Positions 4,853 to 7,900 of a DNA stretch of 26,856 nucleotides are shown here, piece after piece. This stretch comes from a bacterium (lineage in GTDB: Bacteria > Patescibacteriota > Saccharimonadia > CAILAD01 > BJGX01). The position numbers and the translations under genes were made by a program. How positions within the stretch are numbered: position 1 is the first letter of the stretch; each line of letters starts with the position of its first letter. The stretch covers positions 1 to 26,856 of the forward strand of contig JAHFOQ010000001.1 in NCBI GenBank assembly GCA_023261595.1, given 5' to 3'. The notes under the pieces were generated by a model. It saw only the letters and a list, made by a program, of their open reading frames with translations, ran no database searches and was not told the origin of the DNA.

Positions 4853-5407
4853 ATGAGTGTAATCTTTTTAACTATTTTTTTTATCATTCTCGGACCCGTA
4901 GTAGTAGAGATTACTGGGTATTTTTGGCATAGGTTTGTAGAACACGGAGGAATATTTGGCTCATCTATTCAATACAAACATTACTTGCATCATGAAAGAG
5001 ATTATCCAACCACCAAACTTCGTCCACACAAGAGCTACACCAGTGCGCGTTCGTATGGTTGGTATGTATTAACGGTTTTTTTAGTAGTTAGTACGTATTT
5101 ACTCCTACCGCTCCGCTATAGTTTACCAATGATCCTCTCGGGACTTGTGTATGCAAAATTTGTAATTAGTACATTTCATTCGAGCTTTCATAAGAAAAAT
5201 TATTGGCTGAATCGCTACACTTGGTACAAAAGACTTGTATATTTACACGATATCCATCATTATAAACCCGTAAATTACGGAATTAACCTATTTGTTTTAG
5301 ATAGATTGTTTGGTACGTTTTCTGATACGAAGACTTCAAAAATTGAAGATAATTTTCCATCTGCACCAAAGAAACAATTTAGACTAAAAATGCAAAAAAA
5401 CCAATGA
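4853..5407 (+). CDS. fatty acid hydroxylase superfamily membrane protein (sterol-desaturase-like, His-box)
   Basis: Hydrophobic protein of 184 aa. His boxes at HRFVEH, HYLHHE, HSSFHKK and HDIHHYK resemble the di-iron FA hydroxylase/desaturase family. Its stop overlaps the next gene's start (ATGA). Confidence 0.6.
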   Translation: MSVIFLTIFFIILGPVVVEITGYFWHRFVEHGGIFGSSIQYKHYLHHERDYPTTKLRPHKSYTSARSYGWYVLTVFLVVSTYLLLPLRYSLPMILSGLVYAKFVISTFHSSFHKKNYWLNRYTWYKRLVYLHDIHHYKPVNYGINLFVLDRLFGTFSDTKTSKIEDNFPSAPKKQFRLKMQKNQ

Positions 5408-6765
5408 TAACAATTTCACAACATAAGCATAAGATTCAATTTCTCAAAAGAGTGTATGATGTTCGCAAACACGGTGAATTTGCGACCGATAAAAAAACCA
5501 CTAATCTTTTTCGATCTCGTAAACGAAAACATACAGTTAAGCTGCCATTGCGTGATTTTAACCAGGTGATTTCGATTGATAAGACCAATAAGTCTGCACT
5601 TGTTGAAGGTATGACAACGTATGAAACGCTTGTGGACGAAACTCTCAAACAGGGATTTATGCCGGCTGTGGTACCTCAACTGCGGAGTATTACATTGGGT
5701 GGGGCAGTAACTGGTATTGGCATTGAATCGAGTAGTTGGAAGTATGGATTTCCACACGAAACAGTTGAAGAAATAGAAATTTTTACCGGGAGTGGGGAGG
5801 TAATATCTGCACGGCCCGATAATGAAAATAAAGATCTATTTTTTGGATTCCCAAATAGTTATGGGAGTCTTGGATATGCACTTTCTCTCCAAATAAAACT
5901 CATTCCTGTGAAGCCATTTGTACATTTACAGTATCTAAAGTTTAACAATACTAAGGAATTATTTTTAGCTTTTAAAACAATTTGTAACACCGGCAAATAT
6001 AACAACAAAAACATCGATTTTATCGATGGAGTAATGTATGGTAAAAACGATTACGTAATTTGTATCGGTACCATGGTTGCGACTGCACCATTTGTGAGTG
6101 ACTATACCTATGACAAAATTTTTTATAAATCGATTATTGAGCGAGATGAAGACTACCTGACTATAAAAGATTACATTTGGCGTTGGGATACCGACTGGTT
6201 CTGGTGTTCGAAAAACCTTAAAGCACAACATCCTATTATTCGTCGTTTGTATGGAAAAAAGCGCTTACGTTCTGATTATTATATGAAGTTATTTGCTATG
6301 GAAACCAAGTATGGTTTAGTAAGGCGAATCGATAAAGTAGCTCGCCGCCCAGAAAGAGAAATGGTAATTCAAGATGTAGAGATACCATTAGAGAACTGTG
6401 AAAAATTTGTTTCATTCTATCAAAAAAATATTAATATTCTCCCTGTATGGATGTGTCCAGCCCATCAAATGAATGCAAAAGTTGATTGGAAGTTATACAG
6501 AATGGATCCAAATAAGTTGTATATAAACTTTGGATTTTGGGATAGCGTAAAAGCTCGAAAAACTGATCCTTCTTATCATAATAAATTGATTGAAGACGAA
6601 GTACGTCTACTAAAAGGCAAAAAATCGCTTTATTCAGATAGTTTTTATGATAAGGCTACATTTTGGAAACTTTACAATAGGGCAGATTATGATATACTCA
6701 AGCTCAGATACGATCCTGAGTCGCGACTCAAGGATCTTTATGAAAAAACAGTAAAAAAAGGATAA
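5404..6765 (+). CDS. FAD-binding PCMH-type oxidoreductase, DHCR24 (delta24-sterol reductase)/BfaA-like
   Basis: 'ITLGGAVTGIGIESSSWKYGFPHETVEEIEIFTGSGEVISARPDNENKDLFFGFPNSYGSLGYALSLQIKLIPVKPFVHLQY' aligns to human DHCR24 '[81 protein letters not shown]'. Confidence 0.75.
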   Translation: MITISQHKHKIQFLKRVYDVRKHGEFATDKKTTNLFRSRKRKHTVKLPLRDFNQVISIDKTNKSALVEGMTTYETLVDETLKQGFMPAVVPQLRSITLGGAVTGIGIESSSWKYGFPHETVEEIEIFTGSGEVISARPDNENKDLFFGFPNSYGSLGYALSLQIKLIPVKPFVHLQYLKFNNTKELFLAFKTICNTGKYNNKNIDFIDGVMYGKNDYVICIGTMVATAPFVSDYTYDKIFYKSIIERDEDYLTIKDYIWRWDTDWFWCSKNLKAQHPIIRRLYGKKRLRSDYYMKLFAMETKYGLVRRIDKVARRPEREMVIQDVEIPLENCEKFVSFYQKNINILPVWMCPAHQMNAKVDWKLYRMDPNKLYINFGFWDSVKARKTDPSYHNKLIEDEVRLLKGKKSLYSDSFYDKATFWKLYNRADYDILKLRYDPESRLKDLYEKTVKKG

Positions 6766-6766
6766 A

Positions 6767-7900
6767 ATGGCCGATTCTACAAATAAAACCACGGTTAAGA
6801 AGCTCTTAACCCTTGCTGACATTAAAGTAAATGGAAAACGCGCTCAAGACATTATTATTACTGACGAACGTTTTTATGACAGAGCTCTAAGCCATGGAAG
6901 CTTAGGTATTGGCGAAAGCTATATGGATGGTTGGTGGAGTGCAAATAAGCTCGATCGATTTTTTGAAAATGCTTTTCAGGCAGATTTACGCGATAAGGTG
7001 AGTAAGAATTGGAGACTAGCAGCTTACGTTGTTCGTGGTTCTCTCATTAACTTCCAGATGGGGAAACGAGCTTATAAGAATGCTCAAAAACATTATGACA
7101 TTGGTAATGATCTTTACGAACCAATGCTTGGGAAGACAATGGCTTACACCTGTGGGTATTGGGACAGAGGAGCAAAGACGCTCGATAAAGCTCAAGAAGA
7201 TAAATTTGAGCTTGTTTGCCAAAAGCTTGGTTTAAAAAAAGGAATGAAAGTGCTAGATCCTGGTTGTGGATGGGGTGGCCTTTCTCGATACATGGCACAA
7301 AAATATGGCTGTGAAGTTACCTGTTTTACTCCGGCTAAAGAACAAATAGCGTATATTAAACAGCACTCAAAGGGCTTAAAAGTGAAACCTATCCTTTCAA
7401 CATGGCAAGACTATAAAGGTAAGACTAAGTTTGATCGTATTGCATCGATTGGAATGATGGAACACGTAGGGCCAAAAAATTATGAAAAATATTTACGTCG
7501 TATGGCAGAAATATTAACCGATGATGGAATTATGGTACTACACACAATAGGAGGCAACAAAAGTATTCGTCGAATTGATCCATGGATTGATAAATACATT
7601 TTCCCAGGTGGTGTTTTGCCAAGTGTAAAACAGCTAGCCAGTGCCTTTGAAGGTATCTTTATTCTTGAGGATTGGCATAATCTTTCAACCAACTATGATA
7701 AAACATTGTTAGCTTGGTATGAAAACTTTAAGGAGTCTTATCCAAAGCTCAATCATGATAAATATGACACTCGCTTCTATCGCATGTGGGAATTCTATCT
7801 TCTTACTTGTGCTGCATTGTTTCGAACACGTCAAACTCAACTTTGGCAGATAGTAATTAGCAAAAAAGGTGTTACTGGTGGGTACAAAAGCGTCCGCTAA
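6767..7900 (+). CDS. cfa: cyclopropane-fatty-acyl-phospholipid synthase family SAM-dependent methyltransferase
   Basis: Collinear with E. coli Cfa at most of its conserved blocks: SLGIGESYMDGWW, HYDIGNDLY, VLDPGCGWGGL, IGMMEHVGPKNY, LHTIG, DPWIDKYIFPGGVLPSV, EDWHN and LWQIV. Confidence 0.9.
   Translation: MADSTNKTTVKKLLTLADIKVNGKRAQDIIITDERFYDRALSHGSLGIGESYMDGWWSANKLDRFFENAFQADLRDKVSKNWRLAAYVVRGSLINFQMGKRAYKNAQKHYDIGNDLYEPMLGKTMAYTCGYWDRGAKTLDKAQEDKFELVCQKLGLKKGMKVLDPGCGWGGLSRYMAQKYGCEVTCFTPAKEQIAYIKQHSKGLKVKPILSTWQDYKGKTKFDRIASIGMMEHVGPKNYEKYLRRMAEILTDDGIMVLHTIGGNKSIRRIDPWIDKYIFPGGVLPSVKQLASAFEGIFILEDWHNLSTNYDKTLLAWYENFKESYPKLNHDKYDTRFYRMWEFYLLTCAALFRTRQTQLWQIVISKKGVTGGYKSVR

What the first reader, a model, noticed from the sequence alone, without database searches (positions are those of the whole stretch)
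4853..7900. Start/stop-overlapped lipid-tailoring operon: His-box hydroxylase/desaturase, DHCR24/BfaA-like FAD reductase and Cfa
The three genes are back to back: an ATGA overlap, then a 1-nt gap. This pairing of a Cfa-family methyltransferase with an FAD-dependent reductase resembles the two-step mycobacterial 10-methyl (tuberculostearic) fatty-acid pathway, where a Cfa-family methyltransferase makes a methylene intermediate that an FAD oxidoreductase reduces. The adjacent di-iron hydroxylase/desaturase could make the unsaturated substrate or add a hydroxyl. The reductase is also clearly related to eukaryotic delta24-sterol reductase. In a reduced-genome, possibly lipid-scavenging organism, a dedicated membrane-lipid remodelling module is unexpected. 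The cluster sits right after a tRNA gene and seems even more AT-rich than its neighbours, which hints at horizontal acquisition.
Basis: partly seen in the sequence, partly recalled or inferred. Interest (0 to 1): 0.7.

Follow-up and report, generated by a model that had tools for sequence, protein, structure and literature searches.

The report
Methyl-branched lipid operon in Saccharibacteria
A tiny, lipid-dependent Saccharibacteria bacterium carries a tightly packed three-gene operon that most likely turns unsaturated membrane fatty acids into mid-chain methyl-branched ones, using a known mycobacterial-type reductase teamed with a different methyltransferase and an extra iron enzyme.

Summary
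Three co-directional ORFs (4853-5407, 5404-6765, 6767-7900) are joined by an ATGA overlap and a 1-nt gap, 155 nt after tRNA-Ser.

- **Middle gene:** it is a full-length homologue (47% identity) of the experimentally validated 10-methylene fatty-acid reductase BfaA. It is also distantly related to DHCR24 over its whole length.
- **Methyltransferase:** it is not BfaB-type (about 30% identity). It belongs to the E. coli-Cfa / Desulfobacter-TmpB clade (45-51%), which contains both cyclopropane formers and methylene formers.
- **Evidence for a methylene-forming step followed by reduction:**
  - BfaA-family genes sit next to Cfa-family genes in 72 of 80 loci, across three phyla and three methyltransferase clades.
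  - The window enzyme has Thr before the catalytic Cys, as do all BfaB, TmpB and reductase-paired enzymes examined. Five crystallised cyclopropane synthases have Ser.
- **Di-iron FA_hydroxylase gene:** it belongs to a small family seen so far mainly in Saccharibacteria and other CPR bacteria. It lies directly upstream of Cfa or BfaA-Cfa in 5 of 10 contexts. Its reaction is unresolved.
- **Horizontal-transfer idea:** not supported. GC3 matches the rest of the window, the synteny is conserved, and the reductase falls in a separate Patescibacterial clade.

Verdict: a new variant of a known pathway, of moderate interest.

The parts
4608..4697 (+). tRNA-Ser (anticodon CGA). It is the upstream neighbour and context only, not part of the operon.
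   Evidence: ARAGORN; Rfam RF00005 at 54.1 bits.
4773..4797 (.). Perfect inverted repeat CCAAACAAAAT-TGC-ATTTTGTTTGG in the AT-rich leader between the tRNA and gene 1. It could be a hairpin ending the tRNA transcript or an operator. Its function is unknown.
   Evidence: Read directly from the sequence. Not tested further.
4853..5407 (+). Gene 1: a 184-aa membrane di-iron enzyme of the FA_hydroxylase / 'sterol desaturase' superfamily. It has four His motifs (H26x4H31, H43xxH46H47, H109x3H113, H132xxH135H136).
   Evidence: Pfam PF04116 at 47.7 bits. All 10 His are invariant in 24 homologues. The AF2 model has pLDDT 92.5 and is a helical bundle. The only PDB fold match is the Scs7p fatty-acid 2-hydroxylase, with TM 0.64 normalised to the query and probability 1.0. 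The family is small: 16 clusters at E<=1e-30 among 1.84 billion representatives.
5404..6765 (+). Gene 2: a 453-aa BfaA-family FAD oxidoreductase, the predicted NADPH-dependent reductase of the exomethylene intermediate. Its ATG overlaps the stop codon of gene 1 (ATGA).
   Evidence: 47% identity over 453 aligned columns to the validated T. curvata BfaA. FAD_binding_4 domain. Falls in a Patescibacterial clade with 88% bootstrap, separate from the actinobacterial clade at 93%. Full-length homology to DHCR24.
6767..7900 (+). Gene 3: a 377-aa Cfa-family SAM methyltransferase of the E. coli-Cfa/Desulfobacter-TmpB clade. It has the N-terminal domain, all five bicarbonate ligands, and Thr128 before the catalytic Cys129 (MAYTCGYW). 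It is the predicted methylene-forming enzyme.
   Evidence: CMAS at 269.5 bits and PRK11705 at 510 bits. 51%, 50% and 45% identity to Desulfobacula TmpB, D. postgatei TmpB and E. coli Cfa, against 30-32% to BfaB. Clade bootstrap 100. Ligand residues and the Thr signature.
7909..7933 (.). A 9-bp-stem hairpin starting 9 nt after the stop codon of gene 3. It is the likely end of the transcript (a bidirectional-type terminator, with the T-run on the minus strand only).
   Evidence: Terminator scan. No + strand terminator-like site lies inside 4853-7900.

Best explanation
The three genes form one operon of a Candidatus Saccharibacteria genome, and its products act on acyl chains already esterified in membrane phospholipids.

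Proposed steps:
1. Gene 3 is a Cfa-family SAM methyltransferase. It methylates a cis double bond, probably at delta-9 to delta-11, and releases an exomethylene fatty acyl chain rather than a cyclopropane.
2. Gene 2 is a BfaA-family flavoenzyme. It reduces that methylene with NADPH to a saturated mid-chain methyl branch, a 10-methyl-type fatty acid as in tuberculostearic acid.
3. Gene 1 is a small membrane di-iron, O2-dependent enzyme and an accessory. Its most likely role is to prepare the shared substrate by desaturating a saturated acyl chain. Failing that, it hydroxylates the acyl chain.

What is shown: the gene arrangement, the family memberships, the BfaA homology, the conserved BfaA-Cfa linkage, the catalytic residues, and the organism.

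What is inferred: the methylene (not cyclopropane) product, the position of the branch, NADPH use, and the reaction of gene 1.

Confidence is about 0.6 for the two-step methyl-branch chemistry and about 0.35 for the desaturase role of gene 1.
For: 1. BfaA homology. The window protein is 47%, 46% and 44% identical over its full length to T. curvata, M. smegmatis and M. tuberculosis BfaA. T. curvata BfaA reduces 10-methylene to 10-methyl fatty acids with NADPH (PMC7791843, Table S3; PMC5660069).

2. Conserved linkage. In 80 genome loci found with the BfaA profile, 72 have a Cfa-family gene within 600 bp, 71 of them on the same strand. These span three different methyltransferase clades: 55 actinobacterial BfaB-type, 10 proteobacterial Marinobacter-TmpB-like, and 6 E. 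coli/Desulfobacter-type, including three Patescibacteria loci. A reductase has no obvious job beside a cyclopropane synthase, so this linkage argues for a methylene intermediate.

3. Nearest characterised methyltransferases. Those of known function closest to gene 3 are the Desulfobacter-group TmpBs at 50-51% identity. TmpB makes 10-methylene-palmitate in E. coli (PMC7791843, Table 1).

4. Thr/Ser position. The residue before the bicarbonate-ligand Cys is Thr in the window enzyme. It is Thr in all 7 BfaB and 5 TmpB reference sequences. It is Thr in 31 of 31 aligned reductase-paired/TmpB enzymes, and in 68 of 69 scorable Cfa ORFs next to BfaA genes. It is Ser in 5 of 5 crystallised cyclopropane synthases. 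In an independent set of 80 E. coli-type Cfa loci, an adjacent BfaA- or TmpA-like reductase occurs with 8 of 35 Thr-type enzymes and 0 of 45 Ser-type (Fisher p = 0.0008).

5. Operon structure. The ATGA overlap and 1-nt gap tie the genes together. There is no internal + strand terminator, and a hairpin follows gene 3.

6. Gene 1 linkage. Homologues sit directly upstream of BfaA-like/Cfa genes in 3 of 10 independent contexts, twice with the same 4-bp overlap. They sit upstream of a Cfa alone in 2 more. Those two lone Cfas are Ser-type. Gene 1 therefore accompanies both predicted product types, and those two types share only their olefin substrate.

7. Lifestyle fit. All three enzyme types act on pre-formed lipids. 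CPR/Saccharibacteria are reported to lack membrane-lipid synthesis (PMC10939385).
Against: - No biochemistry exists for any Patescibacterial member.
- The methyltransferase passes NCBI's equivalog model for true cyclopropane synthase (510 bits) and is 45% identical to E. coli Cfa. Inside its clade the branching of E. coli Cfa, TmpB and the Patescibacterial enzymes is unresolved, with bootstraps of 15-46.
- The Thr/Ser position is a correlation found here, not an established determinant. 27 of 35 Thr-type enzymes in the metagenome set have no reductase nearby.
- Gene 1 is absent from a close relative (75% identical reductase) that keeps the FAD-Cfa pair in the same synteny. It is also absent from all 80 BfaA loci of the genome scan, so it is dispensable for the core chemistry.
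- Half of its homologues are not next to any lipid gene.
- No FA_hydroxylase-superfamily member is known to me as a bacterial acyl-lipid desaturase (own knowledge).
- The absence of fatty-acid synthesis in this particular genome could not be checked from 27 kb.
Confidence: 0.6

Rival explanations
1. Gene 3 is an ordinary cyclopropane fatty-acid synthase like E. coli Cfa. The FAD enzyme and the di-iron enzyme then act on the cyclopropane product, for example by ring opening or hydroxylation, or on another lipid. In that case no methylene intermediate is involved.
For: PRK11705 equivalog score of 510 bits against a cutoff of 400. 45% identity to E. coli Cfa. All bicarbonate ligands are conserved. 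The phylogeny inside the clade is unresolved. Source databases call the 90%-identity cluster 'cyclopropane fatty acyl phospholipid synthase'.
Against: - The same equivalog-level similarity holds for the Desulfobacter-group TmpBs, which are closer (50-51%) and make methylene products.
- The partner gene is a full-length BfaA homologue.
- BfaA-Cfa linkage recurs with three methyltransferase clades.
- The window enzyme has the Thr state found in every BfaB, TmpB and reductase-paired enzyme, not the Ser of crystallised cyclopropane synthases.
Confidence: 0.2
2. Genes 1 and 2 form a hydroxylase plus alcohol-oxidase pair, which is typical VAO-family chemistry. Together they make hydroxy and then keto lipids. 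The Cfa gene is merely co-transcribed.
For: Most solved relatives of the FAD_binding_4 part are oxidases or dehydrogenases such as cytokinin oxidase, DprE1 and EncM. Gene 1 overlaps gene 2 by 4 bp here and in L087, where the FAD protein is a divergent paralogue at 34% identity.
Against: - The PDB matches cover only residues ~16-212 (most ~50-175), the generic FAD domain.
- The whole protein, including the C-terminal half, aligns to validated BfaA reductases at 44-47% and to DHCR24, also a C=C reductase.
- Most BfaA loci have no hydroxylase at all.
Confidence: 0.07
3. The cluster is a recently acquired genomic island inserted next to tRNA-Ser, for example from an actinobacterial host that makes tuberculostearic acid.
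For: It lies 155 nt after a tRNA gene. Genes 1 and 2 have somewhat low total GC of 0.34-0.35. Known Saccharibacteria hosts include Actinobacteria, and the bfa pathway is typical of Actinobacteria (own knowledge; PMC7791843).
Against: - GC3 of 0.30-0.315 equals the window background of 0.295 +/- 0.034.
- The low total GC sits in codon positions 1 and 2, which reflects amino-acid composition.
- Relatives at 72-75% identity keep FAD-Cfa in the same synteny.
- The FAD protein falls in a Patescibacterial clade (88% bootstrap) separate from the actinobacterial clade (93%), and the Cfa in a Patescibacterial clade (100%) separate from the BfaB clade, with congruent membership.
- The methyltransferase is not the actinobacterial type.
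- I did not look for integrase genes, direct repeats or a tRNA fragment.
Confidence: 0.08
4. The operon tailors an isoprenoid or sterol-like lipid, by analogy with the sterol enzymes: a side-chain methyltransferase, a DHCR24/DWF1-type reductase and an ERG3/ERG25-type di-iron enzyme.
For: Gene 2 is homologous to DHCR24. Gene 1's family is annotated 'sterol desaturase'. The chemical logic is parallel (own knowledge).
Against: - The methyltransferase is a full-length phospholipid-type Cfa with the N-terminal domain of E. coli Cfa. It shows no hit to sterol methyltransferase models.
- Gene 2 is twice as similar to BfaA (47%) as to DHCR24 (24%).
- No isoprenoid genes are present in the window.
Confidence: 0.03

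Closest known systems
Actinobacterial bfaA-bfaB operon, the tuberculostearic / 10-methyl fatty-acid pathway (Machida 2017, PMC5660069; Blitzblau 2021, PMC7791843)
   Same: - The reductase family is the same, at 44-47% full-length identity.
- The gene order is the same in the loci examined here: the FAD gene comes first and the methyltransferase second.
- The genes are tightly coupled or overlapping.
- The predicted two-step logic is the same: SAM methylenation followed by NADPH/FAD reduction on phospholipid-bound monoenes.
   Different: - The methyltransferase belongs to another Cfa clade, at 30-32% identity to BfaB.
- An additional di-iron FA_hydroxylase gene is translationally coupled upstream.
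- The host is a Patescibacterium presumed unable to make its own lipids.
- The reductase forms its own clade.
tmpB-tmpA operon of Desulfobacter/Desulfobacula, the 10-methyl-palmitate pathway (Blitzblau 2021)
   Same: The methyltransferase is of the same E. coli-like clade (50-51% identity). It shares the Thr-Cys motif and is paired with a flavoprotein reductase.
   Different: - The reductase here is BfaA-type (VAO/DHCR24-like), not the geranylgeranyl-reductase-like TmpA. There is no TmpA hit in the window.
- The gene order is reversed.
- tmp has no di-iron gene.
[quoted passage not shown]
   Same: 45% identity over the whole length, including the N-terminal domain. It has the same SAM motif and the same five bicarbonate-binding residues, and it passes the PRK11705 model.
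   Different: - Thr replaces Ser before the catalytic Cys.
- It is encoded in an operon with a methylene reductase, whereas E. coli cfa stands alone.
- The predicted product is an exomethylene, not a ring.
Eukaryotic DHCR24 / plant DWF1 (delta-24 sterol reductase) working after sterol C24-methyltransferase
   Same: The flavoprotein family is homologous over the full length (24% identity, E = 2e-42). The chemistry is analogous: reduction of a C=C created or positioned by SAM-dependent methylation.
   Different: The substrate class differs: phospholipid acyl chain against sterol side chain. The window protein starts about 66 residues later than DHCR24 in the alignment, so it lacks DHCR24's N-terminal region, which I recall as a membrane anchor. 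The partner methyltransferase is from a different family.
Scs7p / FA2H and other FA_hydroxylase-superfamily di-iron enzymes (ERG3, ERG25, CrtZ, OlsE)
   Same: Gene 1 has the His-box set and a helical-bundle fold, and its only PDB fold match is Scs7p. It is as small as the minimal members such as CrtZ (own knowledge).
   Different: - There is no fused cytochrome b5.
- There is no NCBIfam family and no tblastn hit in plasmids.
- The family is small and, where sources give names, confined to Saccharibacteria and other CPR bacteria.
- The substrate and regiochemistry are unknown.

Membership tests
BfaA (10-methylene fatty-acyl reductase, VAO-type flavoprotein) | Full-length sequence homology to experimentally validated BfaA proteins | tested here: met
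   47% identity (453 aligned columns) to T. curvata BfaA, 46% to M. smegmatis BfaA and 44% to M. tuberculosis Rv3719.
BfaA (10-methylene fatty-acyl reductase, VAO-type flavoprotein) | FAD_binding_4 domain, plus the family-specific C-terminal half with the WRWDTDWFWCS motif | tested here: met
   PF01565 at 41.4 bits. W259-S269 is invariant across 14 diverse homologues and present in the window protein.
BfaA (10-methylene fatty-acyl reductase, VAO-type flavoprotein) | Encoded next to, and co-directional with, a Cfa-family methyltransferase | tested here: met
   There is a 1-nt gap to gene 3. The same holds in 71 of 80 loci elsewhere.
BfaA (10-methylene fatty-acyl reductase, VAO-type flavoprotein) | NADPH-dependent reduction of 10-methylene acyl chains to 10-methyl | not testable with these tools
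   This needs an enzyme assay or heterologous expression with GC-MS.
BfaB (actinobacterial 10-methylene-forming methyltransferase, 'clade B' of Machida 2017) | Sequence and phylogenetic membership in the BfaB clade | tested here: not met
   30-32% identity over the catalytic domain only. The BfaB sequences and the window Cfa fall in different clades, and the E. coli-type clade holding the window enzyme has 100% bootstrap.
E. coli-type Cfa / Desulfobacter TmpB clade | Passes the curated full-length Cfa model and has the N-terminal domain | tested here: met
   NCBIfam PRK11705 at 510 bits against a cutoff of 400, covering residues 3-376. It aligns to 6BQC residues 22-380.
E. coli-type Cfa / Desulfobacter TmpB clade | SAM motif and the five bicarbonate-site residues (E. 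coli C139, E239, H266, I268, Y317) | tested here: met
   All five are identical, and the motif reads VLDPGCGWGG. The residue list comes from PMC7791843 suppl. 3 and my own knowledge.
True cyclopropane synthase (product = cyclopropane ring) | Ser before the catalytic Cys, as in all five crystallised cyclopropane synthases. This is an empirical marker found here, not an established rule. | tested here: not met
   The window enzyme has Thr128 (MAYTCGYW). Ser is found in 6BQC, 7QOS, 5Z9O, 1KP9 and 1TPY. Thr is found in all BfaB, TmpB and reductase-paired enzymes.
True cyclopropane synthase (product = cyclopropane ring) | Forms a cyclopropane ring on phospholipid monoenes | not testable with these tools
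   This needs product analysis.
tmpBA pathway | Partner reductase is TmpA (geranylgeranyl-reductase-like flavoprotein) | tested here: not met
   tblastn of two TmpA sequences against the window finds nothing better than E = 0.96.
FA_hydroxylase superfamily (PF04116; membrane di-iron oxygenases) | Pfam model above the gathering score, the conserved His boxes, and a helical membrane fold | tested here: met
   47.7 bits against a cutoff of 31. Ten invariant His. AF2 pLDDT of 92.5, with a fold match to Scs7p.
FA_hydroxylase superfamily (PF04116; membrane di-iron oxygenases) | Defined substrate and reaction (hydroxylation or desaturation) | not testable with these tools
   Only gene context is available: it is adjacent to Cfa or BfaA-Cfa in 5 of 10 contexts.
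DHCR24 / DWF1 family | Full-length homology to delta-24 sterol reductase | tested here: met
   BLASTP gives 24% identity over residues 36-453 against 102-514, E = 2e-42. The DHCR24 sequence was entered from memory, so its identity rests on my recall. UniRef names on homologues agree. This shows homology, not membership as a sterol reductase.

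The most novel reading that the evidence does not exclude
The operon is a self-contained 'desaturate, methylenate, reduce' cassette. It lets a lipid-auxotrophic epibiont rebuild scavenged host phospholipids in place. 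A new, minimal FA_hydroxylase-family enzyme acts as an acyl-lipid desaturase that creates the double bond. A Thr-type Cfa turns that bond into an exomethylene, and a BfaA-type reductase saturates it to a mid-chain methyl branch. As a corollary, the Ser/Thr residue before the catalytic Cys would be a general switch, or at least a predictor, between cyclopropane-forming and methylene-forming Cfa enzymes.
Probability: 0.22. Interest if true: 0.72.

Novelty: new variant of a known kind. Interest (0 to 1): 0.5.

Why it matters
- CPR/Saccharibacteria are thought to obtain their membrane lipids from hosts, and how they adapt those lipids is unknown. An operon whose enzymes all work on pre-formed phospholipids gives a concrete, testable route for such remodelling.
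- It predicts a lipid signature, mid-chain methyl-branched acyl chains, that could be looked for in co-cultures and environmental lipidomes. In those lipidomes 10-methyl fatty acids are routinely used as biomarkers for Actinobacteria and sulfate reducers (own knowledge).
- The survey shows that the BfaA reductase is not restricted to Actinobacteria. It has teamed up with three different Cfa clades.
- It also yields a simple candidate sequence marker (Thr versus Ser before the catalytic Cys) for telling methylene formers from cyclopropane synthases. Current annotation lumps both together as 'cyclopropane fatty acyl phospholipid synthase'.

Tried and rejected
- **AFDB fold search:** the library was not available for the gene-1 model, so only the PDB was searched.
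- **Plasmid search:** tblastn of gene 1 against annotated plasmids, looking for crtZ-like or other named relatives, found nothing.
- **NCBIfam:** no family matches gene 1.
- **Cluster names:** distant gene-1 relatives carry only the generic label 'sterol desaturase family'.
- **Literature:** searches for Saccharibacteria or Patescibacteria with cyclopropane, tuberculostearic or 10-methyl lipids found no description of this operon. The hits were incidental co-mentions.
- **Metagenome scan with the Cfa alignment:** I used it as an independent control set for the Ser/Thr test instead.
- **Phylogeny to predict the product:** this failed, because E. coli Cfa, TmpB and the Patescibacterial enzymes are unresolved within one clade.
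- **Other candidate discriminating positions:** E. coli F127, D190, V235 and F347 were rejected after checking crystallised cyclopropane synthases, which share the 'paired' state at these sites.
- **Composition-based HGT:** rejected.
- **First tree script:** it timed out and was rewritten.
- **Rfam:** nothing was found in either flanking non-coding region.

Full report
**1. The observation**

The window holds three co-directional ORFs at 4853-5407 (184 aa), 5404-6765 (453 aa) and 6767-7900 (377 aa). The junction sequences show an ATGA start/stop overlap and a single-base gap. Pfam assigns them to FA_hydroxylase (47.7 bits), FAD_binding_4 (41.4 bits) and CMAS (269.5 bits). NCBIfam's full-length Cfa model PRK11705 scores 510 bits against a cutoff of 400. 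tRNA-Ser(CGA) lies at 4608-4697.

No + strand terminator-like site lies inside the cluster. A 9-bp hairpin starts 9 nt after the last stop codon. The description is therefore correct.

Source names on close homologues identify the organism as Candidatus Saccharibacteria.

**2. Composition and origin**

The three genes have GC3 of 0.303, 0.300 and 0.315. The 22 genes downstream have GC3 of 0.295 +/- 0.034. Their slightly low total GC sits in codon positions 1 and 2.

The real outlier is the upstream gene 1377-4010 (GC 0.476, GC3 0.374), together with a GC-rich non-coding stretch.

A relative whose reductase is 75% identical keeps the FAD-Cfa pair followed by the same M3 peptidase, HAD hydrolase and FMN reductase genes. 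The same holds for one at 72%.

In NJ trees the reductase falls in a Patescibacterial clade (88% bootstrap), apart from the actinobacterial clade that contains the validated BfaAs (93%). The methyltransferase tree shows a congruent Patescibacterial clade (100%). A recent transfer next to the tRNA is therefore not supported. An ancient transfer cannot be judged.

**3. The reductase**

Reference sequences were taken from the supplement of Blitzblau et al. 2021 (PMC7791843). Against these, gene 2 is 47% identical over 453 aligned columns to T. curvata BfaA, 46% to M. smegmatis BfaA and 44% to Rv3719. T. curvata BfaA converts 10-methylene to 10-methyl fatty acids with NADPH. The pathway was first shown by Machida et al. 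2017 (PMC5660069).

Solved structures match only the generic FAD domain, residues ~16-212 (most ~50-175).

A DHCR24 sequence that I entered from memory aligns over residues 36-453 at 24% identity, E = 2e-42. UniRef labels on homologues agree.

**4. The methyltransferase**

Gene 3 is only 30-32% identical to BfaB. It is 51% and 50% identical to Desulfobacula and Desulfobacter TmpB, and 45% to E. coli Cfa.

A tree of 35 Cfa-family proteins gives three deep clades. The window enzyme sits with E. coli Cfa and the Desulfobacter TmpBs (100% bootstrap), but relationships inside that clade are unresolved. That clade contains a cyclopropane former (E. coli) and methylene formers (TmpB; Table 1 of PMC7791843). 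Neither homology nor the 'equivalog' annotation can therefore predict the product.

The SAM motif and the five bicarbonate-site residues are intact.

**5. Linkage as evidence for function**

A scan of one genome per species with a BfaA profile returned 80 loci. In 72 of them a Cfa-family gene lies within 600 bp of the BfaA-like gene, and in 71 it is on the same strand.

| Group of loci | Count | Arrangement |
|---|---|---|
| Actinobacterial | 55 | bfaA followed by BfaB-type |
| Proteobacterial | 10 | Marinobacter-TmpB-like methyltransferase followed by a BfaA-like gene |
| E. coli/Desulfobacter-type | 6 | Includes Patescibacteria L001, L002 and L005, arranged as in the window |

One reductase family has thus been recruited beside three methyltransferase clades. 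That makes sense if all three deliver a reducible exomethylene.

**6. A residue that tracks the pairing**

I compared E. coli Cfa with 31 reductase-paired or TmpB enzymes. Five positions were uniformly different. Four of them are shared with crystallised cyclopropane synthases and were discarded.

One position survives: the residue before the bicarbonate-ligand Cys.
- It is Ser in E. coli, Aquifex and L. acidophilus Cfa, and in CmaA1 and MmaA2.
- It is Thr in all BfaB and TmpB reference sequences.
- It is Thr in 68 of 69 scorable Cfa ORFs beside BfaA genes.
- It is Thr in the window enzyme (MAYTCGYW).

As an independent test I used 80 E. coli-type Cfa loci from metagenomes. An adjacent BfaA-like reductase (2 loci) or TmpA-like reductase (6 loci) occurs only with Thr-type enzymes. 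The counts are 8 of 35 against 0 of 45, Fisher p = 0.0008.

Many Thr-type enzymes have no reductase nearby, so Thr is at best necessary, not sufficient. This is a correlation, and I found no paper describing it.

**7. The di-iron enzyme**

Gene 1 has ten invariant histidines in the classical motifs. Its predicted helical-bundle structure is confident (pLDDT 92.5). Its only solved structural relative is the Scs7p fatty-acid 2-hydroxylase.

The family is small: 23 hits in the word-indexed search, and 16 representative clusters at E<=1e-30. Where sources give names, they are Saccharibacteria or other CPR bacteria.

Ten independent genomic contexts were examined:

| Context | Count | Loci |
|---|---|---|
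| Hyd followed by a BfaA-like gene (then Cfa) | 3 | Window; L087, with a divergent 34% FAD protein and the same 4-bp overlap; L089 |
| Hyd followed by Cfa alone | 2 | L082, L088 |
| Hyd among unrelated genes | 5 | L084-L086 (one context), L090, L091, L172, L173 |

An HMM of the family finds no copy in any of the 80 BfaA loci of the genome scan. The 75%-identity relative also lacks it. Gene 1 is thus a lineage-specific, dispensable add-on.

The two Cfas that follow gene 1 without a reductase are Ser-type. Gene 1 therefore accompanies both predicted product types, and what those two types share is the olefin substrate. This tilts me towards a substrate-supplying desaturase.

[quoted passage not shown] Acyl-chain hydroxylation or an unrelated substrate remain open.

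**8. Mechanism proposed**

Steps:
1. An O2-dependent di-iron step may create, or otherwise modify, the acyl chain.
2. The Thr-type Cfa adds the SAM methyl to the cis double bond of a phospholipid-bound acyl chain and releases an exomethylene.
3. The BfaA-type flavoprotein reduces it with NADPH to a mid-chain methyl branch.

All three enzyme classes work on pre-formed lipids. This fits an organism of a group reported to lack membrane-lipid synthesis and suspected of taking lipids from its host (PMC10939385).

The neighbouring genes suggest an oxygen-exposed lifestyle compatible with a di-iron oxygenase. They include msrA, msrB, two FMN reductases and a DsbA-like thioredoxin.

**9. Comparison and verdict**

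The system is best described as a hybrid of the two published routes to 10-methyl fatty acids. It combines the bfa reductase with a tmp/E. coli-type methyltransferase, adds a third di-iron gene, and sits in a phylum where it has not been described in the literature I could search.

It is a new variant of a known kind. I put about 0.6 on the methyl-branch chemistry, and considerably less on the role of gene 1.

Noticed in passing
window 4054-4545 (+): A GC-rich (~0.50) non-coding stretch between the vault-like gene and tRNA-Ser. It has promoter-like TTGACA motifs at its start and an intrinsic terminator at 4516-4536 with a T-run. It folds far better than shuffles (MFE -186.5 kcal/mol, z = -6.45). 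There is no Rfam hit even at E<=1, and no tmRNA. It is a candidate undescribed structured RNA of about 400-450 nt.
   Followed up: partly
window 1377-4010 (+): An 877-aa protein with a Major Vault Protein shoulder domain (PF11978, 95.9 bits), a Vault_3 repeat and an SPFH/Band_7 region. This is a bacterial MVP-like protein in a Saccharibacterium. It has the highest GC of the window (0.476, GC3 0.374), and the candidate RNA lies directly downstream.
   Followed up: no
Cfa family in general (window residue Thr128; loci L001-L171): The residue before the catalytic Cys is Thr in every BfaB, TmpB and reductase-paired Cfa examined, and Ser in five crystallised cyclopropane synthases. In 80 metagenomic E. 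coli-type Cfa loci, reductases adjoin 8 of 35 Thr-type and 0 of 45 Ser-type genes. It is a possible annotation marker for methylene-forming enzymes.
   Followed up: yes
L016, L023, L028, L033, L035, L040, L041, L046, L064, L069 (proteobacterial loci): A Marinobacter/Thiohalospira-TmpB-like methyltransferase is followed by a BfaA-like reductase rather than by TmpA. TmpA was inactive in the published assays. In these bacteria a BfaA-type enzyme may therefore be the working reductase.
   Followed up: partly
L082 1-7828 (Saccharibacteria GCA_016191105.1): A larger lipid-looking neighbourhood. In order it holds FAD_binding_4+FAD-oxidase_C (550 aa), a Pyr_redox_2 flavoprotein, a short CMAS (296 aa, lacking the SAM motif region in my alignment), a UbiB/ABC1 kinase, the gene-1 homologue, and a Ser-type Cfa.
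   Followed up: no
L087 6001-8127: It has the same three-gene architecture with the same 4-bp overlap. However, the FAD protein is only 34% identical to the window's and 32% to T. curvata BfaA, so it is a second, divergent BfaA-family subtype in Saccharibacteria.
   Followed up: partly
L086 9437-9838: A stand-alone cytochrome b5 domain gene lies about 3 kb downstream of a gene-1 homologue. It is a possible electron donor, since Scs7p/FA2H carry a fused b5 domain.
   Followed up: no
window 10520-17313: A run of redox and repair genes: two NADPH-dependent FMN reductases, MsrB (SelR), MsrA (PMSR), a DinB/MDMPI-like protein, an SLT transglycosylase and a DsbA-like thioredoxin. This suggests exposure to oxygen.
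   Followed up: no
window 17957-26694 (-): A cluster with three pilin-like proteins carrying N-terminal methylation motifs and a T2SS-F/PilC platform protein. It is probably a type IV pilus locus, as known for Saccharibacteria.
   Followed up: no
L172 580-3586: A SIR2_2 protein followed by a HerA/DUF87 ATPase, a SIR2-HerA type anti-phage pair, lies upstream of a gene-1 homologue.
   Followed up: no
window 4773-4797: A perfect inverted repeat with 11-bp arms and a 3-nt spacer (CCAAACAAAAT TGC ATTTTGTTTGG) lies in the leader of the operon. It could be an operator or a tRNA terminator.
   Followed up: no
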